A stretch of 64,000 bases of DNA from Acidobacteriota bacterium (GCA_965217775.1 CBDCJH010000002.1:1056001-1120000); one strand, 5' to 3'. Counted from the stretch's first letter, positions 24,449 to 57,142 are shown. Numbers and translations: made by a program. The notes: a model not told the origin generated them from the letters alone.

Positions 24449-26632
24449 TCATGGACGTGCGGCGTTGGAATCGCCACCCGCTTCGGCTGCGCCGCCGCGG
24501 CCCGGACCGGATTTCCGGGACCATTCCAGCCGCTCCCGGTAGATTCTCTCCGCTTCGGCCAGTTGTCCCAGAACCTCCCGTTGCTGGTGCAGGCTCTCGA
24601 AGGAGCCGCCGGCGAGAGAGGTCTGGCGCATCTCGTCGAACCTCTCCAGGAAGAACTGCAGGGCTTCGGGGTCGGCGTAGGGCCGTCCGCCCACGGTGAC
24701 GTAGACCGGAGTGGTGTGGGCAAAGAGATCGGGATTGTTGACCACCAATGGATGCTCTCCGCCGCGGACCCGAGCGGCCATCCAACCGCTGGACGGAACC
24801 CGGATGGTCCCCCGGTGAATCAAACGGGTCTCGTCCTGTAGCGGGATCTCCTGCAGGACCTCGCTGTTGAACAGAATCTCCACCTTCTCCATGGGAACCT
24901 GGGAATGCGCCTCCAACTCCAGCTCCACCGGTCCGGGCTCGTCCAGGGCGATCTCGCTTCCGGGAAGGCGGCCCTGGACCCGGAAGTAGAGGAGAGGTCC
25001 GTTGCTGACGAAGGTCTTCCCCTGCTGCAGGGCCCGAACCCAGGACTCGTACGACAGACTGTCCCCGGTGTAGGCGTAGACTCGATCGCCTCCCAGGACC
25101 TTGTGGCGGCGGACGTTGTTGAAGGTGTCGGTTCCGGCAACCGCGCTCAGGCGCCATCCGCAATCCAGCAGCAGGCGGTAGAGAGCGTTGGAACCCTCGG
25201 TGCTGGACAGGCCCAGGATCTCCATGCCGTCGACGGTTCCCAGGGCGGCGTCCACGGGGATCCAGCGTTGCCGGCCCAGAGAGGGGTGGACGTAGAAGAC
25301 GGCGGCTCCTTCCTTGCGGACCTCCCGGACGGCGGTGGTGTTGGACGGGTAGTCGAAGGGAAAGAAACTGGCGGGGAATCCGTTGTAGGGGGGCTCCAGA
25401 AAACGCTTCAGGTTCAGGACGCCGATGTGTCCGTAGAGAGCGGGGCGGATCTCCTGGCTCCAGTAGAGGATATGCCGCGGCGTGCTCAGGGGATGGGGAG
25501 CGCCGGTGAAGTGCTGCCGGTCGTAAAGGACCGCCCCCTGCGAGTTGCAGACCAGGAGGTTGGCCACGTTCAAGTCCTCGGCCTCCACCTGGAGGCGGAC
25601 GTCGGCGGGGTTGACGACCTGGTCCATGGTCTTGTGGACCAGGTTGGGATGGATGTGGATGTCTCCCGAGTACCAGCCGCGGGAGGCCGCGTCGTGGAAG
25701 CGCTCCAATCGAAACTCCAGCGAGTTGGGGCCGGAAGGCTGCAGGTCGACGACCCGTTCCTGGAAGCGGTGCTCGAATCCGCGGACCACGCGGATTCGCG
25801 TCTTGCCTGCCGGGAGGACCAGGCTGCTGGTTCCCCGCGTGTGAAAGTAGGCGCCCGCCCGGATCGGCGTATAGCGGAGATAAGTGCCCGAAGGGGCCCG
25901 CCCCAGGCCGTCGGACCCGACCACTTCTACCCGCGCGGGGACCATCCGGCCGTTCTCATCCAGAACCCGTATCTGGAGACGGCAGGAGGGGTTCCAAGCC
26001 AGGGGAAGACTCACCCGGCGAATCCGGCCGTTGGTCCCGACCTGCAGGTCCAGATTCCTACTGCCCTCTCCCCAGACCCGGGCGATGACGGCATGGACTT
26101 CCTGAGGGGCCAAGCGGACTTGTCGAGGCCGGAAATACAGCGGACCCTCCGCCGGTTCCAGACTCACATTCTGGGAACGGCGGGACAGGTTCCGAAGCAG
26201 GACCAACACCCGGTTCTCCAATCCCCGGGTGAACTCCAGCCGGGATGGACGGACCTGGACCACCGGCGGGGCGACCTCGATCTTGAGCAGCTCAGGGGAG
26301 GAGAGGTTCCAGAGGGAGACGCTGATCTGGGACCTCACAACCGGAGCCGGTAGGACAGTGCGGTCACCGTAGACGTTCCTCTGGAGCAAGGTGAGAGGAC
26401 GGACCTGGCCGTAGACGCTGAAGGCCGCCTCCCGATTCACCCGTTGGTTCAGGAGCAGTGCCGAGAAGAACTCGATGAAGTGCCGGTGACGGGGGTCCCG
26501 AATCTGCAGGCCGTCGAGGGTGTCTTCGGTCAGGCCGTAGGGATTGAAGATCGGCTCCCCCGACTGGCCGGGAAGGCTGGTCGACAGTAGGATCGCCAGA
26601 ACGGGGACGAGCCCCCACGATACTCGATTCAA
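24449..26632 (-). CDS. CehA/McbA family (PHP-like) metallohydrolase
   Basis: GWYSGDIHIH, YGHIG, AGTD, FVSNGPLL, AHTTPVYV. Confidence 0.8.
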   Translation of the reverse strand: MNRVSWGLVPVLAILLSTSLPGQSGEPIFNPYGLTEDTLDGLQIRDPRHRHFIEFFSALLLNQRVNREAAFSVYGQVRPLTLLQRNVYGDRTVLPAPVVRSQISVSLWNLSSPELLKIEVAPPVVQVRPSRLEFTRGLENRVLVLLRNLSRRSQNVSLEPAEGPLYFRPRQVRLAPQEVHAVIARVWGEGSRNLDLQVGTNGRIRRVSLPLAWNPSCRLQIRVLDENGRMVPARVEVVGSDGLGRAPSGTYLRYTPIRAGAYFHTRGTSSLVLPAGKTRIRVVRGFEHRFQERVVDLQPSGPNSLEFRLERFHDAASRGWYSGDIHIHPNLVHKTMDQVVNPADVRLQVEAEDLNVANLLVCNSQGAVLYDRQHFTGAPHPLSTPRHILYWSQEIRPALYGHIGVLNLKRFLEPPYNGFPASFFPFDYPSNTTAVREVRKEGAAVFYVHPSLGRQRWIPVDAALGTVDGMEILGLSSTEGSNALYRLLLDCGWRLSAVAGTDTFNNVRRHKVLGGDRVYAYTGDSLSYESWVRALQQGKTFVSNGPLLYFRVQGRLPGSEIALDEPGPVELELEAHSQVPMEKVEILFNSEVLQEIPLQDETRLIHRGTIRVPSSGWMAARVRGGEHPLVVNNPDLFAHTTPVYVTVGGRPYADPEALQFFLERFDEMRQTSLAGGSFESLHQQREVLGQLAEAERIYRERLEWSRKSGPGRGGAAEAGGDSNAARP

Positions 26633-28734: not shown

Positions 28735-29727
28735 TCACTTCCTCCATTTTGTCAAGTAGTATGAAATAAGAATAACTAAAAAACCAACTATCACTGCAAT
28801 TAAAGGGATCGTTGCTTTCCCCAACGTCGTTCCTTGAAGATATGTCATGCCTCCGTACATCATCGTCAGCGCGCCGACTATCCCGCCTGCTATTCTGATA
28901 AACTTTCGCTCGAACAAAGATTCTACAGTGTCCAAGAGACTCTTTCGGGTGTCCTCCAGTTTTTCAGAGAGCCGTTCTGTTTCGGCCGCAAACGTCTCTG
29001 CTAGTGTATCCGTTGTACGTTGGAAGCCATCTCGCATCATTCGTACGTCAGTCGATACAACCTCAAATTTGCCGTGAAGATTAGTTAGTTCGGTTCCTAT
29101 ATGGTCGAAAGGATAGCCCGCCTCACGCAGTTGCTTCTTCGGATCGAGGTTTTCGAAGGTAGACGAAACGATCTGGGTTTTTGGTATGTTTGCAGGGATC
29201 GTGCGCGCCGACCGAACAATTCCTTCACTATCCTGGTAGCTGTCCTTTGGGCGATCGCCGTACCCGGTTTCCGGGCTCTCGGTTTCGTCCAAGGCGAATA
29301 TTGTCAACTTGAAAATCGGCTCTCCATACTGGAGTATAAGATTCTTCGTAGAACCATTTCGCAACCCCCAATTAAGCATACCTCGAAATCCCGCATCGAT
29401 CTTTGTAGCTGCTTGCGAAATGCCTTCCCGCATCATTGTGGTGGTCGGAGTAATAAACGCCATTAAGGTGCAACCAGGAAAAAGCTCCTGGATTTTGGAT
29501 GAACGAAAATTGATTTGTTCAATGCTGGAAATGGAAATACTTTCTCCAGGATTGACTTTCAGGAATTGTCCGGCAGCAAGTTCTCGTTCTTCGTCGGTGG
29601 AGTGAAATAAAACGTGCTTTCCAAGACGCAATTCAATTCCATTTGGATTTATAAGTTCAGGATCGGCATGTTTGATCACTGAACCGAGTAGGCGATTGAT
29701 GTCTCTATCAGGAAGAATGGTAGCCAC
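28735..29727 (-). CDS. Degenerate dCTP deaminase/dUTPase-fold protein with coiled coil and two C-terminal TM helices
   Basis: ILPDRDI, NPNGIELRLG, KIDAGFRG, GEPIFKL; hydrophobic C-terminal pair; visibly AT-richer than flanks. Confidence 0.7.
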   Translation of the reverse strand: MATILPDRDINRLLGSVIKHADPELINPNGIELRLGKHVLFHSTDEERELAAGQFLKVNPGESISISSIEQINFRSSKIQELFPGCTLMAFITPTTTMMREGISQAATKIDAGFRGMLNWGLRNGSTKNLILQYGEPIFKLTIFALDETESPETGYGDRPKDSYQDSEGIVRSARTIPANIPKTQIVSSTFENLDPKKQLREAGYPFDHIGTELTNLHGKFEVVSTDVRMMRDGFQRTTDTLAETFAAETERLSEKLEDTRKSLLDTVESLFERKFIRIAGGIVGALTMMYGGMTYLQGTTLGKATIPLIAVIVGFLVILISYYLTKWRK

Positions 29728-30319
29728 TATCCCTGCCCCATTTCATACCGTTTCTGTGGCTTCTGGCACCCTGACGATGGGCGTCTTGTCGGTGTCCGTG
29801 GGCGTCATCTTATTACGATGCGGTTTTCCACCTTCGCAATTATGCACGCTTCTCAGGATACTGCTCACTTCGTAGCCAAGCGGTCGTCCAGAACCGAAAA
29901 ACGACAGGATTGCCGTTGATCCAACGTGCCAGTGGTTGGCGTAAGACGGGGATCCAAAGCGTCCAGCCTAGCCGACGCACCGGAGAATCGGGGACGTGCT
30001 CTTCTGGAAAGAACAACCCGATTCGCGTTGGCGGGCGAGTATGACTGGACGCACGGAGAACATCAAGGGCGTTTGGGAGCTCACTGCATCTGATGCCGTC
30101 AGGTGCCGGCTGATTGGTTGGCAAGGCTTGGCGGAGGGACCGGAGGGGGTGTGCGACTTTGGCTGGAGTGTGACGAGAATAGTGAGAGTGGACCAGGGCT
30201 GGGCCCCAAGGGGAGACTTGCCAGCACTTCTGCCACCGCAGCCCGGGTAGCGGAGAGGGGAGCGTGGGAGCGGTTTCTTTGAACCGGACAGCACGGCTTG
30301 TATAGTGGACGGTGCCAAC

Positions 30320-33300
30320 ATGATCCCTCCCCTGGTACACACCTTCCATCTGGACGAAGGAGCCGTCTTTCGCTGGCGCTTCGCGGGATTGATCCTGGGG
30401 GGCCTGCTTCTGGTGGCCTACTGGCAGGAGTGGATCGTCTCCCCCTTTCCCTGGGACCTGGGCCTCATCCTGACCTTCCTCTACGGGTACAGCACCTTCC
30501 ACCGGGCGTTCCAGGACGTGATCTCCCGGCGGATCAGCGCCGATCAGGCGGTGACTCTCGCAGCCTTGGCCGCGCTCTATGTGGGCGAGTATCTGGCCGC
30601 CGCCGAGGTGGTCTACATCATGCTCGTGGGGGAGACGCTGGAGGCCTACGCCTCCCAAAGGTTCCACACCGACCTGACCCAGCTGCTCTCGTTGCTGCCC
30701 CGGGAGGCCCACCGCTGGGGAGACGACGGCGAGGAGCGGGTGGCTCTGGGCGAACTCCGGCCGGAGGACCGGTTGGTGGTCTATCCGGGCGAGCGAGTCC
30801 CGGTGGACGGCGTCATCCTGGAAGGGGAATCGCTTCTGGACGAGAGTTCCATCACCGGGGAGTCGGTGCCCCGGGAGCGGTCGGTCCGCGACCAGGTCTA
30901 CGCCGGCAGCGTGAACCAGACTGCCCGGCTCCTGGTCCGCGCCCGCCAAGTGGGCGAAACCACGGTGTTGAACCGGATCGTGGAGCTGGTGCGCCAGGCC
31001 CGGGAGAGCAAGGCTCCGATTCAACGGACCGCGGACCGCTACGCCCAATGGTTTCTGCCGCTGGTGCTGGGAATCGCGGTCCTCTGCTACGTGGTGACGG
31101 GGGACTGGATGCGCTCGGTGGCGATCCTGATCGTGGCCTGCCCCTGCGCCATGGTCCTGGCGACGCCGGCGGCGGTCCTGGCCACCATCAGCGCCCTGGC
31201 CCGGAAGGGCATCGTCGTTCGCGGCGGGGTCCAGATCGAGGAGCTCTCCAAGATCGACTGCTTCGCCTTCGACAAGACCGGGACCCTCACCCGGGGCCGG
31301 CCCGAGCTGGTCCGGGTGATCCCCTTCGGCGAATTTCGGCCCGACGCGATCCTGGGTTGGGCGGCATCCCTGGAATTCTTCTCTGAGCATCTGCTGGCCA
31401 AGGCCATTCGGGAGGCGGCCGAGAGCCGCGGACTCGACGTGTCGCCCGGGGAATCGGTCCAAAGGCACGCCGGTCTGGGTCTGGAAGGGACGGTGGCGTC
31501 CAGCGGCGGGAAAGCGGGTCCGACCGTACTGGTGGGCAGCGCACGATTCCTGGAGCAGCGGGGAGTGACCCTCTCCAAGCCGGAGCAGGACGCCCTGGAT
31601 CAAGCTGCTTCCGAAGGAGGCATCGCCGTCCTGGTCGGGCGGGAAGGGCAAGCTGCCGGAGTCCTCCTACTGCAGGATCAGCCCCGGCAGGAGGCGGGCC
31701 AAGCGGTGGCCGAGTTGCGCCAACTGGGGATCCGGAAGTCCCTGCTGTTGACGGGAGACAACGAAAAAGCGGCCCACCGGGTGGCCCGGGAGGTGGGGAT
31801 CGCCCAAGTGCACGCGGGACTGCTCCCGGAGGAAAAGCTGGCCCACCTGGAGGATCTCAAGCTCCAGGGCCTCCGGGTGGCCATGGTGGGAGACGGTGTC
31901 AACGACTCGCCTTCGCTGGCCGCCGCCCACGTCGGCATCGCCATGGGGGACACGGGGACCGACATCGCAGCCGAAGCTTCGGGCGTGGTGCTGGTCGGAG
32001 ATAGTGGGCTGGACCGCCTGAAGCCGTTGATCCGCATGAGCCGCCACGCCGTCAAGACCATCAACGACAACATCTTCTGGTTCGGTCTGGTCTTCAATCT
32101 GGCCGCGGTCATGGCCGCCTTCTGGGGCTACCTGAGCGCCGTGGGCGCCGCCGTGGTCCACCAGGGTTCCTCGTTCCTGGTGCTGATGAATTCCCTCAAG
32201 CTGCTGGATCGCCGGCCGTCGGAGCTTCTTCCCCACGGGCTTCGCCACCGGCTGCACCACCTCCACCACCGGTACCACCATCTCCGCCACGACTTCCACC
32301 ATCTCCAACACGATGTCCTCCACTGGTTGCACCATCGGAATCCGGCCCATCTTTTCAGGCACTTTCTCCATTGGGCGGGTCATCGCAAGAAATCCCTCCT
32401 GCGCTGGGCCGCGGCCGCGGCCGTCCTGGCGTATCTGTTCTCCGGGGTCCGGATGCTGGCGCCGGAGGAGGTGGGAGTGGTCCAGCGCCTGGGCCGGCTC
32501 GTCGAGGGGTCGCTGGACCCGGGGCTTCATTACGTGGCTCCGTGGCCCGTGGAGACCCTCCACCGGCTCCGGCCCGCGCAGGTCCGCACCGTGGAGCTGG
32601 GTTTCCGGATCTCCGACTCGGCGCCCGGGGCCGCAGGCGGGCCGGCCGCCTACGAGTGGAACAATCAACATCGGCAGGGACGTTACCTGCGCCGGGAAGA
32701 CGAGGCGCTCATGCTCACGGGAGATGAGTATCTGGTGGAGGTCAATGCGGTGGTCCACTACTCCATTGCCGACTTCCACCAGTACCTCTTCGCCAGTTCG
32801 AACCTGGAATCCACCTTGCAGTTCCTGTGCGAAAGCGCCTTGCGCCAGGTAGCGGCCACGATGGAGTTGGATCGGATTCTGGCCCTGGACCGGCGCACCA
32901 TCGAGAGCGCGGCGATGGCGATCGTCCGAGCGGAGGCGGACCGACTGGGCCTGGGGGTCCGGGTCCAGGCGTTCCACCTCCAGGACGTGCATCCGGCGCT
33001 GGAAGTGGTGGGTGCGTTTCGGGACGTGGCCAGCGCCCTGGAACAGAAGAGCCGCATGATCAACGAAGCGCATGCGTACGCCAACCAGCGGGTGCCCATT
33101 GCGGCGGGCGAGTCCCAGGGTCGCCAGATCCAGGCTCAGGCCTATGCGTTTTCGCGGGTCCGGCGTTCCGAGGGCGAATCCCGCCGTTTCGAACTGCGCT
33201 ACGACGCCTACCGGCAGTCCCCGCGAACGACCCGCATTCGTGTCTACCTGGAGGCCATCGAAGCGGGCTTGGCGGGCAAGAAGAAATACATCCTGGACCA

Positions 33301-33391
33301 GGGCTCCGGACGCCGGAAGATGCTTCTGTTTCGTAATTCGGTGTTCAATTTCGGAGACTTCGAGAAGGCGGTCGCCGCCCGCGATCAATGA
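30320..33391 (+). CDS. P1B-type heavy-metal ATPase fused to an HflK-like SPFH domain via a His-rich linker
   Basis: TGES, CPC, DKTGTLT, SEH, TGDN, GDGVND; then TM plus GVVQRLG, PGLHY..PWP, MLTGD..LV (HflK); start 30305 or 30320. Confidence 0.92.
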   Translation: MIPPLVHTFHLDEGAVFRWRFAGLILGGLLLVAYWQEWIVSPFPWDLGLILTFLYGYSTFHRAFQDVISRRISADQAVTLAALAALYVGEYLAAAEVVYIMLVGETLEAYASQRFHTDLTQLLSLLPREAHRWGDDGEERVALGELRPEDRLVVYPGERVPVDGVILEGESLLDESSITGESVPRERSVRDQVYAGSVNQTARLLVRARQVGETTVLNRIVELVRQARESKAPIQRTADRYAQWFLPLVLGIAVLCYVVTGDWMRSVAILIVACPCAMVLATPAAVLATISALARKGIVVRGGVQIEELSKIDCFAFDKTGTLTRGRPELVRVIPFGEFRPDAILGWAASLEFFSEHLLAKAIREAAESRGLDVSPGESVQRHAGLGLEGTVASSGGKAGPTVLVGSARFLEQRGVTLSKPEQDALDQAASEGGIAVLVGREGQAAGVLLLQDQPRQEAGQAVAELRQLGIRKSLLLTGDNEKAAHRVAREVGIAQVHAGLLPEEKLAHLEDLKLQGLRVAMVGDGVNDSPSLAAAHVGIAMGDTGTDIAAEASGVVLVGDSGLDRLKPLIRMSRHAVKTINDNIFWFGLVFNLAAVMAAFWGYLSAVGAAVVHQGSSFLVLMNSLKLLDRRPSELLPHGLRHRLHHLHHRYHHLRHDFHHLQHDVLHWLHHRNPAHLFRHFLHWAGHRKKSLLRWAAAAAVLAYLFSGVRMLAPEEVGVVQRLGRLVEGSLDPGLHYVAPWPVETLHRLRPAQVRTVELGFRISDSAPGAAGGPAAYEWNNQHRQGRYLRREDEALMLTGDEYLVEVNAVVHYSIADFHQYLFASSNLESTLQFLCESALRQVAATMELDRILALDRRTIESAAMAIVRAEADRLGLGVRVQAFHLQDVHPALEVVGAFRDVASALEQKSRMINEAHAYANQRVPIAAGESQGRQIQAQAYAFSRVRRSEGESRRFELRYDAYRQSPRTTRIRVYLEAIEAGLAGKKKYILDQGSGRRKMLLFRNSVFNFGDFEKAVAARDQ
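32252..32314 (+). repeat. 3 x 21-bp coding tandem repeat (His heptads)
   Basis: CTGCACCACCTCCACCACCGG / TACCACCATCTCCGCCACGAC / TTCCACCATCTCCAACACGAT. Confidence 0.8.
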
Positions 33392-33455
33392 CCCGGAGGC
33401 ACCGCCCGCGTTGGCGGCACCCTGCGGCGGACGCCGGTAGTTGGAGAACAAGTCG

Positions 33456-34355
33456 ATGACCCGAACTCGGAAAATAATCCGGAACCGGTTGTTCTGGATC
33501 CTGATCCTCTTGATCCTCTCCTATCGGAGCCTGTTCCTGGTGAACGAACAGGAGATGGTCCTGGTCACCCAGTTCGGCCGGCCGGTCGCCCAATACAAGG
33601 ATGCGGGGCCCCGTCTCAAATGGTTCTTCCAGGGGCTCACACGCATCGACAAACGTCTGCACCTGTACAATCCGCGGCCCTCCGAATATCTGACCCGGGA
33701 CAAGAAGAATCTCCTGGTGGAGACCTACGTCATCTGGCAGGTGGAGGAGCCGCTCCAATATCTGAGGACCGTCGGGGATCGCTCCGGCGCCGAGATGCGC
33801 CTGCACGACATCGTGTGGTCGTCGGTCTCGGCCGATCTGGGCCGGACCGAGCTTTCCGAATTGGTGGCTACGGACCCGGACCAGGTCCGGCTGGAGCCCT
33901 TGATGGAGAAGCTCACACGCGAGTGCGATGAGATCTCCCGCCAACGTTACGGAGTTCGAATCGCCTCGGTGGACGTGAAGCGGATCAATCTGCCCACCCA
34001 GAACCGCGAGAGCGTCTATGCCCGGATGCGGGCCGAGCGGGACCGCATCGCCAAGAAATATCGGGCCGAAGGGGAGGAGGAGGCCCGCAAGATCCGGGCC
34101 GAGGCGGACCGCCAAGCCGAGGAGCTGCTGTCGGCGGCCTACAAACAGACGGAGATCATCCGGGGCGAGGCGGACGCCCAAGCCACCCGGATCTACGGAA
34201 GGGCCTATTCTCGGGACCCCGAGTTCTACCAGATGGTACGGACGCTGGAAGCGTACCAGCGGATCCTGGACGACAAGACCACCGCGGTCCTTTCGGCGGA
34301 CTCTGAGTTGCTCAAGCTGCTGACCGAGGGGAGGAACGGAAGGTTGGCCCGGTGA
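33456..34355 (+). CDS. hflC: HflC-like SPFH protein
   Basis: LVTQFGRP, LTRDKKNL, VKRINLP, RMRAERDRIAKKYRAEG, DPEFY. Confidence 0.9.
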   Translation: MTRTRKIIRNRLFWILILLILSYRSLFLVNEQEMVLVTQFGRPVAQYKDAGPRLKWFFQGLTRIDKRLHLYNPRPSEYLTRDKKNLLVETYVIWQVEEPLQYLRTVGDRSGAEMRLHDIVWSSVSADLGRTELSELVATDPDQVRLEPLMEKLTRECDEISRQRYGVRIASVDVKRINLPTQNRESVYARMRAERDRIAKKYRAEGEEEARKIRAEADRQAEELLSAAYKQTEIIRGEADAQATRIYGRAYSRDPEFYQMVRTLEAYQRILDDKTTAVLSADSELLKLLTEGRNGRLAR

Positions 34356-35275
34356 GAATCTGGTTGAGAGAAAACATTCTACTGGTGCTGGCCGTGGTCA
34401 TTGCCTTGTTCCTGGCTTCGGGGATCTACTACGTTCCCACCGATCGGCAGGCGGTGAAGTTGCGGCTGGGCCGGCTGCTTCCGGAGCGGATCCAACCGGG
34501 TCTCCAGTATGCCGCGCCCTATCCTCTGGAGGAGGTGGTCCTCTTGAAGACCAGCGAAGCCCAGCGGCTCACCGTCGGGGGAACCGATCTGGACCGCGCA
34601 CTGGGAGTGCGGGTCCTGACCGAGGACGACTCCCTTTTGAGCGGCGACCAGAACCTGGTCCGGGTCCGGGCTTCCATTCAGTACTACATCCAGGATCCGG
34701 GCCGGTATCTGTATCGGTCACAGGCCCTTCCCCGAGTCCTGGAAGTCCTTCTCTACCGCTCCCTCTCTCGAGCCGTGGCGGTCCGGGGCGTCGACGACGT
34801 GCTCACCACGGGCCGCATCGAGATTCAGAATCGGGTCCGGGAAGATCTGCAGCACGAGGCGGACCGCTTGGCTTTGGGTGTGGCCGTGACCTCCCTGGCC
34901 CTGGAACAGGTCCGTCCTCCAGAACAGGTCCGGGACGCCTTCCTGGAGGTGGCCAACGCCAGGGAGGACCGGAACCGGATCGTGCAGGAGGCCAGGGGCT
35001 ACTCCAGCGAGTTGCTGCCGCGAACCCGGGGCCAAGCCCAGGAAAACCTCCAAAAAGCTCGAATCTATGGCCGCGAGGTGGTTGATCGGGCTCAAGGGAA
35101 GTCGCAGCATTTCCTGAGTCTGTGGGGAGAGTACCGGCGCCATCCCACTGTCACCACGGCCCGGCTCTTCCTGGAGGCCATGGAGGAGATCCTTCCGCGC
35201 ACCCGCAAGGTCATTCTGGACGACGCCGGGAGCAAACAGGGGCTGGACCTGGATATATTCGCGCTGGAGGAGTGA
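34352..35275 (+). CDS. hflK: HflK-like SPFH protein
   Basis: PGLQYAAPYP, LLSGDQNLV, PPEQVRDAF.EV..ARED, RLFLEAMEEIL; 4-nt overlap with hflC. Confidence 0.88.
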   Translation: MRIWLRENILLVLAVVIALFLASGIYYVPTDRQAVKLRLGRLLPERIQPGLQYAAPYPLEEVVLLKTSEAQRLTVGGTDLDRALGVRVLTEDDSLLSGDQNLVRVRASIQYYIQDPGRYLYRSQALPRVLEVLLYRSLSRAVAVRGVDDVLTTGRIEIQNRVREDLQHEADRLALGVAVTSLALEQVRPPEQVRDAFLEVANAREDRNRIVQEARGYSSELLPRTRGQAQENLQKARIYGREVVDRAQGKSQHFLSLWGEYRRHPTVTTARLFLEAMEEILPRTRKVILDDAGSKQGLDLDIFALEE

Positions 35276-35311
35276 GGGAAGCCGGGGAGGGGGACCTCCG
35301 GGGAGACGGAG

Positions 35312-35785
35312 ATGGAACCGAGAAAATGGGTCTCCCTGCTGGCGATCCTGGGCTGCTTCCTCTATTTCGCCTCCCGCGATGCGCCCATCAGGGAAACCGT
35401 AAGGGAAGAGAGACCCGAAGATGTCCTGATCGCCATGGTCCAGGCCATGGAGCGCGGTGACGTCCAGGCGCTCAAGGAGTGCTTCGGAGGAGACCTGAGG
35501 CGGCGCCTGGAGGACCTGTTGGCGCGGGATTCGTCACCCCGGCAGTCCGAGTGGCTCAGGAGACGGGGAAGCGCCGTCAAGGGTCTGGCCATTCTGGGCC
35601 AGGAGGAACTGGGGCCGGATCAGGTCCGGGTGCTGACCGAGACGGTCTACAACGACCGCAACACCCGGCAGTCCTTCCTGTTGGAGCGGGAGAGCGGATC
35701 CTGGCGGGTGACCCAGAGCGATTTCGAAATGGTCAGCGACTGGGAAAACGATTTTGGGAAGTCGATTCGCGAGGTGGAGCGTTAG
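35312..35785 (+). CDS. Small membrane-anchored protein (NTF2/DUF4878-like fold possible)
   Basis: N-terminal TM; PEDV...MERGD; FLLERESGSWRV end; co-directional with the operon. Confidence 0.65.
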   Translation: MEPRKWVSLLAILGCFLYFASRDAPIRETVREERPEDVLIAMVQAMERGDVQALKECFGGDLRRRLEDLLARDSSPRQSEWLRRRGSAVKGLAILGQEELGPDQVRVLTETVYNDRNTRQSFLLERESGSWRVTQSDFEMVSDWENDFGKSIREVER

Positions 35786-36022
35786 TGATTCTGGAGAGTC
35801 AGCAGTGGGAGCATCGCGCGCCGCCGTGGGCACCTTGACGACTGATTCTGGCCCGTTTGTGGCCATTGGTTGGCGCGAACTGGTTGACGGTTGCGACGGC
35901 GTGAACGACTCGAATCTCGATGCCTTTCCGGCGAGCGACCTTGCCGAAGTATGCAAACCTTCCGGACCGAAAGCATCGTAACTCTGGCTCATGCTTGTGT
36001 TTGCGACTGACACCCAGACCAG

Positions 36023-37204
36023 ATGAATCCCGAGACCAGCCCGTTCAGACCGGGGCAACCCGTTCCCATTGAGTTCTTCGTCGGTCGTGTCGACGAAATC
36101 AGTCGTCTGCACGGTATGGTGAAAGCCAGCACACAAGGCAGGTTCAAAATAGGATTCATCAGTGGCGAACGCGGCATTGGGAAGAGTTCCCTGGCGTCTT
36201 TCGTGCGCCACCTTCCCGAGCAAGGGAGCGCAGTCGCAGGGTGCCATGTGTCTCTTGGCGGCGTCCGGGGATTGCAGGAGATGCTAAGGAGGACCTTCAA
36301 TCGCCTCTTGAAGGAGAGCAGGGACAAGCCCTGGCACGGACAAATCCGGGAGTTTTTCGGAAACCATGTTCGCAAAGTGGGAATGTTCGGCATCAGCCTG
36401 GAATTGGATCTCAAGGACAGAGACCTGTCGACGGTTGCCCATGACTTCGTTCCAACCATCAGGCGGCTCATGGACAGTCTCAAGGGCCACAAGAGCGCCC
36501 TTTTTCTGATACTGGACGACATCAATGGACTCGCTGGTTCCGAAGCCTTCGCCAATTGGCTCAAGAGCATGGTGGACGAGATTGCCACTTCGGGACGTAC
36601 GGTGCCCCTCTGTATTCTCGTCGTCGGCCTCGAGGAAAGACGACAGGAACTGATAGAGCATCAGCGATCTCTCGCCCGCGTTTTCGAGTTGATCGACCTC
36701 GCGCCCTGGTCGACGGGTGAAGTCAAGCAGTTTTACGACACATCTTTCGACTCCGTGAACGCAAAGATCACTGACTCCGATATGGAACGACTTGTCCGGT
36801 TCACCGGCGGACTTCCTGTACTGGCTCATGAAATCGGTGACGCGGTATGGCGCACGGCGCGAAACTTGGACATCAGTGCAAGAGAAGTTACGGCCGGTAT
36901 TCGGACCGCCGCCGACGTGATCGGCCGAAAACTGCTGGAACCACGGATATTCGCCGCCATCCATAGTGAGCGTTACCGTTCGATTCTTCGAAAATTGTCG
37001 GCCGAGCCTCGGATGCGCTTTCGTAGATCGGAACTCGTGGATCGTCTGACGGACGACGAAAAAAGAGTCATGGACAATTTCCTGAGGCGTATGAAACAAC
37101 TCGGAGCGTTGGATGCCGATCCCGGAATCAGAGGCGGGTACCGATTTCCGAACCTCCTCCACGCGTTGTATTTCTGGATGGAGGCACAGCGAACCAGCGC
37201 ATGA
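36023..37204 (+). CDS. Stand-alone AAA/STAND-like ATPase
   Basis: SPFRPG, FVGR..E, Walker A GERGIGKSS, Walker B LFLILDD, TGGLP. Confidence 0.85.
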   Translation: MNPETSPFRPGQPVPIEFFVGRVDEISRLHGMVKASTQGRFKIGFISGERGIGKSSLASFVRHLPEQGSAVAGCHVSLGGVRGLQEMLRRTFNRLLKESRDKPWHGQIREFFGNHVRKVGMFGISLELDLKDRDLSTVAHDFVPTIRRLMDSLKGHKSALFLILDDINGLAGSEAFANWLKSMVDEIATSGRTVPLCILVVGLEERRQELIEHQRSLARVFELIDLAPWSTGEVKQFYDTSFDSVNAKITDSDMERLVRFTGGLPVLAHEIGDAVWRTARNLDISAREVTAGIRTAADVIGRKLLEPRIFAAIHSERYRSILRKLSAEPRMRFRRSELVDRLTDDEKRVMDNFLRRMKQLGALDADPGIRGGYRFPNLLHALYFWMEAQRTSA

Positions 37205-37724: not shown

Positions 37725-39068
37725 TTATGTCGCCTGCGAAACTAGCTTGTAGCCGAGGAGACGGGCCTGGTTTCGCACCCGGCGTTCGAAACGTTGCCGG
37801 TCCTGGTGCTCGGTCTCGGTGATCTTGTCCTCCTTATAGTCCACGCGATCGGTGATGAGGCGATAGATGATCCGGGCGAGTTTATGCGCGGTGGCGACGA
37901 TCGCCGCCGGCGTGCCCACTCGGGCGCGCAGCCGGCGGAAGTATTGCCCGAGAGGCGATTGGCTGCGAAACAGGGACTGGGTGGCCCAGCGCAGAGCCTG
38001 GGCGGCCCGGTTCGCGCCCGGTCCGGTGCTGGAACTGATCACCTTGCCGCCGCTGATCTTGTTCTTGGGACACAGGCCCAGCCAGGAGGCGAAGTGCGCC
38101 GAATTGGGAAAGCGGGACAGATCCGGTCCCACTTCCGTGAACAGGACCAGGGCGGTCTGCTCCCCGATGCCGGGGATGCACATCAGGTCCGTGCCCATCA
38201 GTTGCTTCAGTTGCACCCGCAACGGCACCGCCGCAGCCGAGGCGTCCGCACCCTCTGAGGCCCTCGCTTCAAGCGGTAGCGTCGAGCGTTCGAACCCCCG
38301 GATCAGGACGGCGATTTCCTGATCACATTCCCCCAAGAGCTGCTGGAAGTGGGCATAGGTCTCCCGAGCTTGGCGTAGCGTGAACAGCAGTTCGTCGCGC
38401 CAGTTCCCTTCCAACGCTGCGATCAACAGTTCCCGTTTTCGGGTCCGAATCCGCGGGTGGGCCAAGTCGGCCAACCGGGCCGGATCCCGCTCGCCAGCCA
38501 GGATGGCGTCGATGATCCGCAGCCCCGAGAGTCCCGTGATGTCGGTGATCGCATGGTGCAGATGGACATTCATCTGGTCCATCGCCTTTTGCATGTGCAG
38601 CGTCGCCTTCGCGGCGGCCTTGACCAAGGTGTCGCGGTGCCGTAGCAGGGTGCGCACCCGACAGATCTCGTCGGCCGGTCGGAACGAGCCCCGCAACAAG
38701 CCCACCGAGTGCAGGTACCGCAGCCACTCGCAGTCGGCCACGTCGGACTTGCGTCCGGGGACCACACTCACATGACGGGCGTTGACCAGCACCACATCGA
38801 ACCCGTAGTGCTCCAGGATCTGGTACACCGGGATCCAGTAGACTCCCGTCGACTCCATGGCCACGCTTTTTACGTGGCACCCCTGCAGCCACCGCGCCAG
38901 GGCGTGCAGTTGGGAAGTAAAGCTGCGAAACGATCGGATCGGCTGCGGATCGCGGTCGGGGCGGATCGCGACGTACAGTTCCCGAGCGCCGATGTCGATG
39001 CCGGCGGCCTCCGGATGCACGACGTTGGGTTGGGCGCTCCGAGTGCCGGTGCGTTTGCGTCTTGCCAT
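37725..39068 (-). CDS. IS110-family DEDD recombinase/transposase
   Basis: AGIDIG, AMESTGVYW, KSDVAD, IPGIG, ASWLGLCP..KISGG, AHKLARIIY; GGAGG RBS before ATG 39068. Confidence 0.95.
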   Translation of the reverse strand: MARRKRTGTRSAQPNVVHPEAAGIDIGARELYVAIRPDRDPQPIRSFRSFTSQLHALARWLQGCHVKSVAMESTGVYWIPVYQILEHYGFDVVLVNARHVSVVPGRKSDVADCEWLRYLHSVGLLRGSFRPADEICRVRTLLRHRDTLVKAAAKATLHMQKAMDQMNVHLHHAITDITGLSGLRIIDAILAGERDPARLADLAHPRIRTRKRELLIAALEGNWRDELLFTLRQARETYAHFQQLLGECDQEIAVLIRGFERSTLPLEARASEGADASAAAVPLRVQLKQLMGTDLMCIPGIGEQTALVLFTEVGPDLSRFPNSAHFASWLGLCPKNKISGGKVISSSTGPGANRAAQALRWATQSLFRSQSPLGQYFRRLRARVGTPAAIVATAHKLARIIYRLITDRVDYKEDKITETEHQDRQRFERRVRNQARLLGYKLVSQAT

Positions 39069-39089
39069 GATGATTGCCTCCACGTTGAT

Positions 39090-39300
39090 TTGGAAAATGT
39101 GCCAATATGGAGCGGGGCGGCCAGGGCGTGAGTTCCGGTAATCTTCTGTTTGGGATGATCCTCTCTGGCTTGCTGCCAGGGAGGATCTCACCATGGATTC
39201 CGCCACCCGCCCCGGGACCAAGCTGATGACCGGGTTCGCCTCGAAAGGCTCAACGCCAGTGGGGGACCGGACTACTTCACGCCCCACTCCGAAACTGGCC
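39090..39300 (-). ncRNA. Candidate IS110 bridge/seek RNA
   Basis: Structured non-coding end upstream of the recombinase; TAGAAT at 39308-39303; 6-9 nt words matching target and donor flanks. Confidence 0.55.
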
Positions 39301-39527: not shown

Positions 39528-41981
<2,454 letters not shown>

Positions 41982-56131: not shown

Positions 56132-57142
56132 ATGGCTGATCAAATTTTCGACATGCCCGAGTTTCGTCCTCCGAGGATCAATTGGAGGTACGTCCGACTA
56201 GGATTCCTGGTCATTTGTGTGGTGGTTCTGGCCTTTGGGACCGTCTATCAGGTGCAGCCGGAAGAGGTCGGAGTGGTCCTGTTTTTCGGGCAGCACGTTC
56301 GCACCGCCCAGCCGGGACTTCGCTTCAAGCTCCCCTTCATGGAAGACGTGCTGAAGGTCCCGGTGCAGCGCCAGCTCAAGCAGGAATTCGGGTTTCGGAC
56401 CACCCAGCCGGAGATCCGGACCCGCTATGCCTCCAAGCGGTTCCTGGACGAGTCGTTGATGCTCACCGGAGATCTGAACGTGGCGGTGGTGGAGTGGATC
56501 GTCCAGTTCCGGATCACCGATCCATTCCTCTTTCTCTTCAGGGTCCGGAACGTTCAGGAGACGTTTCGGGACATGAACGAAGCGGTGATGCGCGAGGTGG
56601 TGGGGGATCGGACCGTCACCGAGGTCTTGACCGTGGGCCGCCAGGAAATCGAGGACATCGCGGAGCAGAAGTTGCAGGAACTCTGCAGGCAGTATGAGAC
56701 CGGAATCACCGTGGACCAGGTCGTCTTGCAGAACGTGAATCCGCCCGATCCTGTCAAGCCGTCGTGGGACGAAGTGAACCAGGCCCAGCAACAGATGGAC
56801 CGCCTCATCAACGAGGCTCGCGCCGAGTACAACAAGGTGATCCCCCGGGCCAAGGGTGAAGCGGAACAGGCCGTCCTGCAGGCTCAGGGTTACGCCCTCG
56901 AGCGCGTCAACGAAGCCAAGGGGGATGCCTCCCGCTTCAAGTCTCTGCACGACGCCTACCGCCGGGCGCCCGAGGTCACCCGGCGGCGGATGTACCTGGA
57001 GACCATGCAGAAGATCCTGCCTCGTTCGGGTCGCAAACTGTTTCTGGACCAGGATGCGGACGGCGTCGTTCCGCTGCTGCCCATGGAGTCGCTGGAGAAG
57101 ATGATATCGGGTCGTTCACAAGCGGAGGGATCGGGCCCATGA
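56132..57142 (+). CDS. hflK: FtsH modulator HflK
   Basis: SLMLTGDLNVAVVEW, VNPPDPV, RMYLETM. Confidence 0.92.
   Translation: MADQIFDMPEFRPPRINWRYVRLGFLVICVVVLAFGTVYQVQPEEVGVVLFFGQHVRTAQPGLRFKLPFMEDVLKVPVQRQLKQEFGFRTTQPEIRTRYASKRFLDESLMLTGDLNVAVVEWIVQFRITDPFLFLFRVRNVQETFRDMNEAVMREVVGDRTVTEVLTVGRQEIEDIAEQKLQELCRQYETGITVDQVVLQNVNPPDPVKPSWDEVNQAQQQMDRLINEARAEYNKVIPRAKGEAEQAVLQAQGYALERVNEAKGDASRFKSLHDAYRRAPEVTRRRMYLETMQKILPRSGRKLFLDQDADGVVPLLPMESLEKMISGRSQAEGSGP

What the first reader, a model, noticed from the sequence alone, without database searches (positions are those of the whole stretch)
30320..35785. P1B metal pump covalently fused to HflK, in an operon with its own HflC and HflK: a possible SPFH cage built around a metal ATPase
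Seen: one uninterrupted ORF with all P-ATPase motifs (TGES, CPC, DKTGT, GDGVND), then a His-rich linker, a TM helix and a full HflK-type SPFH/coiled-coil domain. It is followed by hflC-like, hflK-like (4-nt overlap) and small TM genes. No ftsH is nearby, and a separate ordinary hflK-hflC pair lies at 56132-58068. Established: HflK and HflC alternate to form a periplasmic cage over a membrane patch containing FtsH; P1B ATPases end in the cytoplasm, so the added TM would put the SPFH domain in the periplasm as in HflK. Inference: free and fused HflK subunits co-assemble with HflC, tethering pumps in a caged microdomain that could confine exported metal for loading or storage, or couple metal status to proteolysis. 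I know of no functional description.
Basis: partly seen in the sequence, partly recalled or inferred. Interest (0 to 1): 0.88.

Follow-up and report, generated by a model that had tools for sequence, protein, structure and literature searches.

The report
Metal pump fused to HflK scaffold
A heavy-metal export pump is permanently joined to a subunit of an HflK/HflC-type membrane scaffold and always travels with its own HflC-like and second HflK-like genes, a conserved arrangement also found with two unrelated kinds of metal exporter and not described in the papers I could search.

Summary
One ORF (ATG 30320 to 33391) encodes a complete P1B-type ATPase, a cytoplasmic linker, a ninth TM helix and a full HflK-type SPFH/coiled-coil domain ("K1"). 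It is followed by an HflC-like gene (C2), a free HflK-like gene (K2, 4-nt overlap) and a small membrane-anchored NTF2-like protein.

It is not an assembly artefact. 70 of 80 related loci carry the single-ORF fusion (3 split, 7 cut by a contig end). C2 follows in 70/70 and K2 in 66/66. Contigs from other sequencing runs bridge the junction.

- K1-like domains are fused to three unrelated metal-efflux families: P1B ATPases, CDF transporters and SO_0444-type Cu/Zn permeases.
- The free K2 is specific to these systems: 6/6 CDF-type and 3/3 ATPase-type loci, against 0/30 ordinary hflK-hflC loci.

K1+K2 and C2 each form a clade apart from canonical HflK and HflC.

Best reading: an old paralogous three-subunit SPFH assembly that carries tethered metal exporters, with K2 as a cargo-free spacer. 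Co-assembly, the pump's position, the metal and any FtsH involvement are inferred, not shown. The His-rich linker is lineage-specific. I found no paper describing this.

The parts
30320..33391 (+). Fusion gene: P1B ATPase, linker, TM helix and HflK-type domain (K1). 1023 aa from ATG 30320; the ORF opens at GTG 30305 (P0001 numbering, 1028 aa).
   Evidence: Start choice: Met6 is nearly invariant and the closest database protein is 1023 aa.
30320..32209 (+). P1B-type ATPase part (P0001 residues 6-635). It has 8 TM helices (MA, MB, M1-M6) and no N-terminal metal-binding domain. Motifs: TGES 183, CPC 279-281, DKTGT 323, GDGVND 529. In 107 relatives N598 and H619 are invariant and Q620 is present in 106, with S622 and S623.
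32210..32344 (+). Cytoplasmic linker (residues 636-680). It is His-rich in this genus only; in most relatives it is about 45 aa and Arg-rich.
   Evidence: 19 His over residues 636-697 here; 5 or more His in 25 of 107 relatives; median 1. The AF2 helix 644-670 has low confidence.
32345..32440 (+). Ninth TM helix (residues 681-712). It corresponds to the single TM helix of HflK and carries the chain to the periplasm.
   Evidence: AF2 secondary structure. It aligns to E. coli HflK residues 83 onward.
32441..33388 (+). K1: periplasmic HflK-type SPFH domain, coiled coil and C-terminal 'hat' region (residues 713-1028).
   Evidence: TIGR01933 175.3 bits, over the cut-off. PDB HflK 7vhp_E, E 5.7e-27.
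32585..32704 (+). K1-specific 40-residue insertion (residues 761-800) with invariant Y783, E784, W785, N786 and H789. It replaces the 9-residue loop of E. coli HflK that holds the FtsH-contact residues R141 and E142.
   Evidence: pLDDT is below 50 in the monomer model. A similar Y[QE]WESRH insertion occurs in 6 of 13 CDF-K1 fusions.
33456..34355 (+). C2: HflC-like subunit. 299 aa from ATG 33456; the ORF opens at TTG 33441.
   Evidence: TIGR01932 189.5 bits, cut-off 134.4. 35% identical to the canonical HflC of the same genome. Orthologues are 299 aa.
34352..35275 (+). K2: free HflK-like subunit, 307 aa. Its GTG start overlaps the C2 stop by 4 nt.
   Evidence: TIGR01933 198.6 bits. 31-32% identical to K1 and to canonical HflK. 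Present in 66/66 related loci.
35312..35785 (+). Small accessory protein, 157 aa: an N-terminal TM anchor plus an NTF2-like domain, probably periplasmic. Seen only in ATPase-type operons.
   Evidence: No Pfam family. AF2 pLDDT 77.9. Foldseek finds NTF2-like proteins; the best is 4ovm, E 2.7e-6. Present in 53/61 loci. No conserved Cys or His.

Best explanation
The four genes at 30320-35785 encode a specialised paralogue of the HflK/HflC membrane scaffold. Its client is a metal exporter that is covalently attached to one subunit.

**Shown here**
- The pump is a complete, catalytically intact-looking P1B ATPase without an N-terminal metal-binding domain. Its signature is CPC in M4, an invariant Asn in M5 and HQxSS in M6.
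- After M6 come a cytoplasmic linker, one more TM helix and a full HflK-type periplasmic domain (K1).
- K1 always travels with an HflC-like subunit (C2) and a second, cargo-free HflK-like subunit (K2).
- The same K1/C2/K2 trio occurs with CDF and SO_0444-type Cu/Zn exporters fused in place of the ATPase.
- K1+K2 form a clade distinct from ordinary HflK, and C2 forms a clade distinct from the ordinary HflC of this genome.

**Inferred**
- K1, C2 and K2 co-assemble, like HflK and HflC, into a ring or dome on the periplasmic face of the inner membrane. K-type and C-type subunits alternate.
- K2 fills K positions that carry no pump. It has the shortest client-facing loop and has lost the basic residue that HflK uses to touch its client. 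This keeps the number of bulky pumps per ring below twelve.
- The pumps are held within the enclosed membrane patch, because the K1-specific conserved insertion sits where E. coli HflK faces its enclosed client, FtsH.

**Function (inferred, least certain)**
- The assembly is a delimited microcompartment for metal efflux. It organises or regulates the exporters and receives the exported ions under the dome.
- It probably works without FtsH, which has its own canonical HflK/HflC pair in the same genome.
- The metal is a divalent or monovalent transition metal of the Zn/Cd/Co/Cu group. It cannot be assigned from sequence.
For: **The fusion is real**
- establish the ORF and its domains.
- 177 long proteins match the K1 part. 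The 120 listed all carry Band_7 plus P-type ATPase Pfam families.
- 21 of 401 genomes of the phylum have the K1 part in an open frame of 1000 aa or more. One more genome has it split.
- In 80 named loci, 70 are single-ORF fusions, 3 are split and 7 are cut by a contig end.
- Contigs of four other runs bridge 32106-32572 without indels.

**The operon is conserved**
- C2 follows in 70/70 loci, K2 in 66/66 and the small gene in 53/61.
- No other neighbour is conserved.

**It generalises to other exporters**
- ArsP_1/SO_0444-K1 fusions in the same phylum are followed by C2 and K2. The cargo scores 358 bits against NF033936, cut-off 300.
- Of 120 K1-like long proteins, 88 carry PF03773, 13 carry PF01545 (CDF), 13 carry P-type ATPase families and 6 carry none. 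A BLAST recount gave 90, 13, 14 and 3.
- A ZntA-like P1B ATPase is also found fused to K1.

**K2 is specific to cargo systems**
- A second K follows C in 6/6 CDF-type and 3/3 ATPase-type loci, against 0/30 solo hflK-hflC loci.

**Phylogeny** (careful tree, 55 rows, LG+G4, rooted on C-type rows)
- K1+K2 form a clade at 94/94 (ultrafast bootstrap / SH-aLRT).
- C2 from all three cargo types forms a clade at 94/95.

**Client-facing features**
- The loop is a median 42 aa in K1, 25 in K2 and 30 in solo K.
- The column equivalent to E. coli R185 is basic in 74/92 K1, 14/71 K2 and 49/55 solo K.
- E. coli HflK R141, E142 and R185 matter for FtsH binding (PMC13220708, section 11 read).

**Assembly regions are retained**
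- The HflK and HflC models are covered almost end to end.

**Other**
- There is one ftsH, 4.6 Mb away, and a canonical hflKC pair in the window.
Against: - No physical evidence of assembly exists.
- K1 monophyly (35/88) and K2 monophyly (42/56) are weak in the careful tree. 'One ancient K1/K2 split with cargo swapping' is therefore the best tree, not a demonstrated history.
- Most K1 keep Arg at the R185-equivalent position: 72 of 92. FtsH binding by K1 is not excluded. This genome's K1 has Gln there.
- A 45-aa cytoplasmic linker would allow the pump to sit outside the ring as well as inside.
- Gene order gives two K genes to one C gene, which does not by itself fit strict 1:1 alternation.
- Unfused relatives of the ATPase with the same HQ motif exist: 19 of 104 unfused representatives. 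The pump does not depend on the scaffold in principle.
- The K1 insertion is modelled with pLDDT below 50. The motif is absent from all 90 SO_0444-type K1.
- The small NTF2-like protein has no conserved metal ligands.
Confidence: 0.55

Rival explanations
1. FtsH-coupled turnover. The K1/C2/K2 ring still houses FtsH, as HflK/HflC does. Tethering the exporter to K1 presents it to the protease, so pump abundance is set by regulated proteolysis. Metal status could be read by the cytoplasmic linker or by the pump's conformational stability.
For: - K1 and K2 reach the curated HflK cut-off and C2 the HflC cut-off.
- Most K1 keep a basic residue at the column of E. coli HflK R185, one of three residues whose mutation weakens FtsH binding: 74/92.
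- SPFH assemblies are generally coupled to membrane proteases (general knowledge; abstracts listed).
- This genus has a His-rich cytoplasmic linker that could sense metal.
Against: - The R141/E142 contact loop is replaced by a 40-residue K1-specific insertion.
- This genome's K1 has Gln and its K2 has Glu at the R185 column.
- The genome keeps a canonical hflK-hflC pair for its single FtsH, and no ftsH gene is linked to any of the loci examined.
- In 120 K1-like fusions the cargo is always a metal exporter. Generic quality control would not predict that.
- The His-rich linker is absent from most relatives.
Confidence: 0.22
2. Clustering scaffold only. The SPFH ring forms, but the pumps hang on its outside or are merely concentrated in a lipid microdomain. 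The benefit is local lipid environment, stability or polar localisation, with no confinement of exported metal and no role for the periplasmic dome.
For: - The linker of about 45 residues is long enough to reach either side of the ring of TM helices.
- The SPFH literature mostly proposes microdomain organisation (abstracts listed).
- No conserved periplasmic metal ligands were found in the small protein.
Against: - It does not explain why only metal exporters, from three unrelated folds, are fused.
- It does not explain the conserved K1 insertion at the client-facing loop, shared by ATPase- and CDF-type K1.
Confidence: 0.15
3. Cis-acting periplasmic domain. K1 does not build a large ring. It acts on its own pump as a periplasmic regulatory or gating module, with C2 and K2 forming a small complex or working separately.
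For: The monomer model gives no information on oligomers. Nothing here shows assembly.
Against: - K1 keeps the full coiled-coil and C-terminal regions that build the HflK/HflC cage wall and hat (coverage; alignment to HflK residues 147-353).
- K1 is strictly linked to C2 and K2.
- Every solved SPFH protein seen in the papers listed forms large rings (listing and abstracts only).
Confidence: 0.06
4. Artefact. The long ORF results from a lost stop codon, a frameshift or a chimeric assembly.
For: 3 of 80 related loci have the gene split into two ORFs: L081, L090 and L120.
Against: 70 of 80 independent loci and 21 of 401 genomes carry the intact fusion. Linker and TM helix are conserved, and contigs of four other runs bridge the junction without indels.
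Confidence: 0.01

Closest known systems
E. coli HflK/HflC-FtsH complex (PDB 7VHP, 7WI3, 9CZ2, 9PAW)
   Same: K1 and K2 are HflK-type and C2 is HflC-type by curated models. Each has one TM helix, then periplasmic SPFH, coiled-coil and C-terminal regions. The K and C genes are adjacent.
   Different: - There are three subunit types instead of two.
- One K subunit is covalently fused to a transporter.
- No ftsH is linked.
- The loop holding the FtsH-contact residues R141 and E142 is replaced in K1 and shortened in K2.
- The system is a separate clade that coexists with a canonical pair.
P1B-4 ATPases such as sCoaT (PDB 7QBZ) and P1B-1 CopA (PDB 3RFU)
   Same: Eight TM helices, no classical N-terminal metal-binding domain, and an M6 histidine aligned to sCoaT H657. 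It has CPC in M4, as CopA does, and CopA is the top PDB hit at 325 bits.
   Different: - M4 is CPC, not SPC. M6 is HQxSS, not HEGxT: Gln replaces the release glutamate E658.
- It does not fit the Cu(I) signature as I recall it (YN in M5, MxxSS in M6).
- It carries a C-terminal extension with a ninth TM helix and an SPFH domain.
SPFH-NfeD operons (QmcA-YbbJ, YqiK-YqiJ; recalled, not tested beyond Pfam)
   Same: An SPFH gene sits in an operon with a small membrane-anchored accessory protein.
   Different: The accessory protein here has no NfeD Pfam match and an NTF2-like fold. The SPFH subunits are HflK/HflC-type, and QmcA is only a weak match (E 6.7e-9).
Ferrosome P1B-6 ATPase FezB (recalled from memory, no call)
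   Same: A P1B-type ATPase dedicated to a specialised metal-handling compartment rather than to bulk efflux.
   Different: Ferrosomes are cytoplasmic membrane-bound iron stores with no SPFH proteins. Here the compartment would be a periplasmic protein dome. This is a resemblance in concept only.

Membership tests
P1B-type (heavy-metal) P-type ATPase | Catalytic motifs DKTGT, TGES and GDGxND, and a CPx-type motif in M4 | tested here: met
   DKTGT 323, ITGES 183, GDGVND 529, CPC 279-281. CPC is present in 107/107 relatives.
P1B-type (heavy-metal) P-type ATPase | Curated family model over its cut-off | tested here: met
   TIGR01525 554 bits against a cut-off of 346.25.
P1B-type (heavy-metal) P-type ATPase | Eight TM helices (MA, MB, M1-M6) | tested here: met
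   AF2 helices 20-40, 52-73, 79-93, 96-129, 238-265, 268-300 (kinked at CPC), 568-606 and 612-634. The alignment to 7qbz covers residues 33-636.
P1B-4 subgroup (sCoaT/CzcP/CtpD type) | SPC in M4 and HEGxT in M6 (PMC8880997, passages read) | tested here: not met
   CPC and HQGSS. His is kept in 107/107, Gln replaces Glu in 106/107, and Ser replaces Thr.
P1B-4 subgroup (sCoaT/CzcP/CtpD type) | No classical N-terminal heavy-metal-binding domain | tested here: met
   About 20 residues precede MA, with no HMA Pfam hit and no CxxC in the first 250 residues.
P1B-1 Cu(I) subgroup (CopA type) | CPC in M4, YN in M5, MxxSS in M6 (motifs recalled from memory) | tested here: inconclusive
   CPC is met. Asn598 is invariant but the preceding residue varies (V/F/L). 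M6 has His where Met is expected, and SS is kept. TIGR01511 scores 415 bits against a cut-off of 397.
HflK (FtsH protease activity modulator) | Curated equivalog model over its cut-off | tested here: met
   K1 175.3 bits and K2 198.6 bits against 159.4. The canonical copy in the window scores 276.7.
HflK (FtsH protease activity modulator) | Residues that contact FtsH (E. coli R141, E142, R185; PMC13220708, section 11 read) | tested here: inconclusive
   - The R141/E142 loop is replaced by a 40-aa insertion in K1 and is short in K2.
- The R185 column is Gln in this K1 and Glu in this K2.
- That column is basic in 74/92 K1, 14/71 K2 and 49/55 solo K.
HflK (FtsH protease activity modulator) | Physical association with FtsH and modulation of its activity | not testable with these tools
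   The only ftsH lies 4.6 Mb away.
HflC | Curated equivalog model over its cut-off, with the gene adjacent to a K-type gene | tested here: met
   C2 scores 189.5 bits against 134.4. It lies between K1 and K2 in 70/70 loci.
SPFH-NfeD operon | An NfeD-family partner protein | tested here: not met
   The small protein has no Pfam family and an NTF2-like fold.

The most novel reading that the evidence does not exclude
The K1/C2/K2 trio is a dedicated, FtsH-independent periplasmic nanocompartment for metal export. Exporters of three unrelated folds are tethered inside a three-subunit SPFH dome, with K2 as a spacer. The dome captures the ions they release, possibly on the conserved YEWNxxH loop that lines the membrane-proximal inner wall. 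The ions would then be buffered, sequestered or handed on instead of diffusing freely in the periplasm. This would be the first SPFH cage with a defined, genetically hard-wired client and a function in ion handling rather than proteolysis.
Probability: 0.25. Interest if true: 0.92.

Novelty: new variant of a known kind. Interest (0 to 1): 0.82.

Why it matters
What SPFH cages (HflK/HflC, prohibitins, stomatins, flotillins, erlins) actually do to the membrane proteins they enclose is an open question. One reason is that clients are loosely defined and stoichiometries are heterogeneous.

Here the client is written into the gene. A metal exporter is covalently joined to one subunit, there is a dedicated partner set (C2 and K2), and there are natural variants carrying three different exporter folds. 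That gives a tractable system for asking:
- how a client is positioned in an SPFH ring;
- why a cargo-free paralogue is needed;
- what enclosure does to transport.

For metal homeostasis it points to an undescribed layer of organisation of Zn/Cu/Cd-type efflux. The scan matched 516 K1-like loci in the 185,579-species collection, and the 80 examined were all of this system. It also defines an unclassified P1B signature: CPC, Asn, HQxSS.

Tried and rejected
**Complex prediction.** I folded the ATPase plus linker plus K1 TM helix (A1, residues 1-715) with the small protein (A4) as partner. The verdict was no support: 0.21 against a mark of 0.32. This is not evidence either way.

**Regulatory signals upstream.** One promoter-like site at 30279-30306 was found against 0.8 expected by chance, and one weak palindrome at 30236-30253. 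Nothing usable, and no metal-regulator operator or regulator gene.

**Conserved neighbours beyond the four genes.** Only a DUF3604-like gene recurs, in two lineages. I rejected it as part of the system.

**His-rich linker as a defining feature.** Rejected.

**The small protein as a lipoprotein.** The Cys of 'ILGC' is not conserved. Rejected.

**The small protein as a metal chaperone.** No conserved Cys, His or Met. Not supported.

**FtsH-contact test.** Inconclusive. The EMBO J paper quotes 'Arg191' of HflK from Qiao et al. In the PDB chain alignment, residue 191 is Ala and the nearby arginines are 185 and 193. Qiao et al. is not in the library, so I used R141, E142 and R185 from PMC13220708.

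**RNA-library coverage.** Contigs of X8 and X10 cover 30.2-35.8 kb and give no cover on the flanks 29800-30213 and 35803-36000, where X1 and X4 continue. Both RNA libraries are from one study, they are contigs, and DNA carry-over is possible. I do not use this as evidence of transcript ends or of expression.

**L204.** A 960-aa open frame with a K domain showed no cargo family and is probably an over-long ORF.

**Metal specificity.** It could not be assigned. PDB scores are near-equal for CopA (325 bits), sCoaT (302) and ZntA (290).

**Supplements.** Supplementary files of papers were closed. Supplements of PMC13220708 and PMC8880997 (contact maps, subgroup alignments) might refine the contact residues and the P1B subgrouping.

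**Rows left out of trees.**
- One search used G000 plus 10 of the 20 loci. It left out the near-duplicates L038, L040-L042, L044, L047, L051, L052 and L055, and the split L048.
- Searches used 6 of the 10 CDF-type loci (those with a complete trio) and 14 or 12 solo-K loci, which I picked for full flanks.

**Unpublished genomes.** G152 and G049 were among the 401 genomes, each with one ordinary-type match.

Full report
**1. What is in the sequence**

One search lists a single ORF at 30305..33391 (+).

- Pfam finds E1-E2_ATPase (129-301), Hydrolase (317-542) and Band_7 (720-925).
- NCBIfam places residues 82-633 in the heavy-metal P-type ATPase subfamily (554 bits, cut-off 346). It places residues 716-1006 in the HflK equivalog (175.3 bits, cut-off 159.4).
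Met6 is nearly invariant among 63 relatives, and the 98%-identical database protein has 1023 residues.
- An AlphaFold2 model built on 63 relatives has mean pLDDT 79.3, about 90 over the ATPase. It shows eight TM helices, a low-confidence linker helix (644-670), a ninth TM helix (681-712) and then the SPFH and coiled-coil parts. With a cytoplasmic N-terminus, nine helices put the SPFH domain in the periplasm, as in HflK.

Downstream lie three genes:
- an HflC-type gene, C2, at 33441/33456-34355 (189.5 bits, cut-off 134.4);
- an HflK-type gene, K2, at 34352-35275 (198.6 bits), overlapping C2 by 4 nt;
- a 157-aa membrane protein at 35312-35785.

A canonical hflK-hflC pair is at 56132-58068, scoring 276.7 and 262.8 bits. 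The genome's only FtsH-type peptidase is 4.6 Mb away.

**2. It is not an artefact, and the operon is conserved**

- A search restricted to long proteins, scored on the K1 part, returned 177 hits. The 120 listed all carry Band_7 together with P-type ATPase Pfam families. Sources name them either 'HflK' or 'cadmium/copper ATPase'.
- In 401 genomes sampled from the phylum, 21 have the K1 part inside an open frame of 1000 aa or more. One further genome has it split.
- In the 18 ATPase-type loci I cut out, the order fusion, C2, K2, small gene is kept. The small gene was not detected in one of them.
- A scan of one genome per species found 516 related loci. The best 80 are almost all titled Acidobacteriota, Bryobacteraceae or Bryobacterales, Blastocatellia, Terriglobia or Solibacteraceae. 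Single records are labelled Clostridia, Abditibacteriales and Aminicenantes.
- In those 80 loci, 70 are single-ORF fusions, 3 are split into two ORFs and 7 are cut by a contig end. C2 is present in 70 of 70 loci with enough downstream DNA, K2 in 66 of 66, and the small gene in 53 of 61.
- Nothing else in the neighbourhood is conserved. In this window the flanks are a dCTP-deaminase-like gene, a STAND-type NTPase and an IS110 transposase, in lower-GC DNA.
- Contigs of four other public runs, two of them RNA libraries, bridge the M6-linker-TM-SPFH junction (32106-32572; one spans 31103-32572) without indels.

**3. The pump**

The ATPase part scores about equally against three solved pumps: CopA (3rfu, 325 bits), the P1B-4 pump sCoaT (7qbz, 302 bits, aligned over residues 33-636 including MA and MB) and ZntA (4umv, 290 bits). 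The M5-M6 region alone matches only sCoaT: VHQGSS here against VHEGST there.

In 107 full-length relatives, CPC, Asn598 and His619 are invariant and Gln620 is present in 106.

According to the sCoaT paper (passages read):
- P1B-4 pumps are defined by SPC and HEGxT;
- they have eight helices and lack classical metal-binding domains;
- they use the His as an internal counter-ion and the Glu in release.

This family shares the architecture and the His. It has CPC and Gln instead, so it is not a P1B-4 member by motif. It does not fit the Cu(I) signature as I recall it either.

Among the 150 best representatives of 50%-identity clusters related to the pump, 46 carry a K domain, and 35 of those have HQ in M6. 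The other 104 carry no K domain: 19 of them have HQ, and many have HN or HE. The pump belongs to a wider, unclassified CPC/Asn/H[QNE] group, of which a large part is fused. I cannot name the metal.

The His-rich linker (19 His) is a feature of this genus. Only 25 of 107 relatives have five or more His, and the typical linker is about 45 residues and Arg-rich.

**4. The scaffold subunits are a separate three-member system**

In this genome K1, K2 and canonical HflK are 31-32% identical to one another, and C2 is 35% identical to canonical HflC.

A careful tree of 55 rows rooted on C-type proteins shows:
- K1 plus K2 as one clade (ultrafast bootstrap 94, SH-aLRT 94), apart from solo HflK;
- C2 proteins as one clade (94/95), apart from this genome's canonical HflC, the only canonical HflC row in that tree;
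- K1 (35/88) and K2 (42/56) each on one side of a branch in the best tree, but weakly.

The quick trees agree.

**5. The key generalisation**

Three genomes of another genus in the phylum have open frames of 741-750 aa holding the K1-like part. In the two I cut out, an ArsP_1 permease is fused to the K1-type domain and is again followed by C2 and K2. That cargo reaches the equivalog cut-off of the 'SO_0444 family Cu/Zn efflux transporter' (358 bits, cut-off 300).

I searched with that K1 domain among long proteins and got 120 hits. By the precomputed Pfam column:

| Cargo | Hits |
|---|---|
| PF03773 (ArsP_1 / SO_0444) | 88 |
| PF01545 (CDF cation efflux) | 13 |
| P-type ATPase families | 13 |
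| None | 6 |

- My BLAST recount gave 90, 13, 14 and 3.
- Source names include Rokuibacteriota, Gammaproteobacteria, Myxococcota, Chloroflexi and Lentisphaeria.
- One ATPase group is ZntA-like, not HQ-type.
- I confirmed Cation_efflux + Band_7 and ArsP_1 + Band_7 myself on examples.

In metagenome loci:
- a second free K gene follows C in 6 of 6 CDF-type and 3 of 3 ATPase-type loci with at least 1.1 kb beyond C;
- a seventh CDF-type locus shows a K2 cut by its contig end;
- no second K follows C in 30 ordinary hflK-hflC loci.

So a cargo-fused K1 with a C2 and a cargo-free K2 is a fixed trio, and the cargo is always a metal exporter, from three unrelated folds.

**6. Client-facing surface**

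In E. coli, FtsH binds the cage only through HflK. Mutating R141, E142 and R185 of HflK weakens that binding (PMC13220708, section 11 read).

- Alignments to the PDB chain show that K1 has 40 residues (761-800) where E. coli HflK has the nine residues 138-146 that include R141 and E142.
- That insertion holds the invariant Y783, E784, W785, N786 and H789.
- A similar insertion, Y[QE]WESRH, occurs in 6 of 13 CDF-type K1. It occurs in none of the 90 SO_0444-type K1.
- Over 92 K1, 71 K2 and 55 solo K, the loop is a median 42, 25 and 30 residues.
- The R185 column is basic in 74/92 K1, 14/71 K2 and 49/55 solo K.
- This genome's K1 has Gln there and its K2 has Glu.

My reading is that K1 keeps and elaborates a client-facing surface while K2 has lost it, which fits a spacer role. 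It does not settle whether FtsH is bound.

**7. The small protein**

- It has no Pfam family.
- It has an N-terminal TM helix with more positive charge on its N-side, so the domain is probably periplasmic. This is my inference from the sequences.
- It has an NTF2-like fold (pLDDT 77.9; Foldseek best hit E 2.7e-6).
- It has no conserved Cys or His.
- My BLAST query for it hit only ATPase-type operons. Its role is open.

**8. Mechanism**

*Shown:* the fusion, its topology by model, the conserved trio, the restriction of cargo to metal exporters, and the separate ancestry.

*Established elsewhere:* HflK and HflC alternate in a 24-subunit cage whose TM helices surround a membrane patch holding FtsH (PMC12048511, passages read).

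*Inferred:*
- K1, C2 and K2 build such an assembly.
- K2 dilutes the pumps. Twelve P-type ATPases would be a tight fit in or on one ring; this is my estimate, not computed.
- The pumps sit within the ring and release metal under the dome.

I favour a function tied to exported metal over generic quality control. The only property the three cargo families share is that they release transition-metal ions into the periplasm, which is exactly where the dome sits.

My confidence is about 0.97 that the system is real and conserved. It is about 0.7 that the three subunits co-assemble with tethered pumps, and about 0.4 that it works without FtsH as an efflux microcompartment. The 0.55 scored for the best explanation is for the whole.

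**9. Comparison and novelty**

The system works like HflK/HflC, and its subunits pass the curated HflK and HflC models. It differs in five ways: three subunit types, a covalently attached client, altered client-facing loops, separate ancestry, and coexistence with a canonical pair.

Databases already hold these proteins under automatic names, for example JGI's 'copper-(or silver)-translocating P-type ATPase/HflK protein'. Five full-text searches found no paper that describes the fusion or the trio. Subscription journals are not covered by that library. I class it as a new variant of a known kind.

**10. Verdict**

The finding is real and of high interest. It is weaker in two places: the His-rich linker is local, and loss of the FtsH contact is unproven.

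Noticed in passing
window 28735-29727 (-), 36023-37204 (+), 37725-39287 (-): The operon is flanked by lower-GC DNA (0.535 at 28-30 kb, 0.568 at 36-38 kb). It holds a 330-aa dCTP-deaminase-like protein, a STAND/AAA_16 NTPase and an IS110-family transposase. These look like mobile or defence-island genes.
   Followed up: partly
L048 / L081 (G393), L090, L120: Three relatives have the fusion gene split into two overlapping ORFs. These may be frameshifts, sequencing errors or pseudogenes. In G393 the break lies just after the K1 TM helix.
   Followed up: partly
G000:C1:81949-82494 (locus L060): A third P-type ATPase of the genome sits in a 1007-aa open frame on the other contig. No Band_7 hit lies on that contig, so it is a long unfused pump.
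   Followed up: no
window 35293: In all four runs laid, contigs carry an extra A after 35293, in the 36-nt spacer between K2 and the small gene. This is a strain difference or a homopolymer error in the window.
   Followed up: no
window 21740-24397 (-): An 885-aa protein with PSCyt1, PSCyt2 (DUF1549) and PSD1 (DUF1553) domains, an architecture named after planctomycetes. The 727-aa gene next to it (24449-26632) has no Pfam family.
   Followed up: no
proteins P0183, P0186, P0193, P0209: A second kind of ATPase-K1 fusion, 1106-1133 aa. It is ZntA-like (554 bits to PRK11033 for P0183) and has an N-terminal extension of roughly 190-235 residues holding 9-14 His.
   Followed up: partly
runs X8-X11: RNA libraries labelled 'sponge metagenome' hold 39% of the sampled words of the junction region. 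Contigs of X8 and X10 cover most of the operon. This does not show transcription.
   Followed up: partly
G000 as a whole: The genome is 97.88% complete but has 7.47% contamination by marker genes. The operon is shared with five same-genus genomes at about 90% identity, so it belongs to this lineage.
   Followed up: no
window 39528-41981 (+): A RecQ-type helicase with a C-terminal HTH_40 domain, followed by an 853-aa sulfatase-family protein and a nucleoside 2-deoxyribosyltransferase.
   Followed up: no
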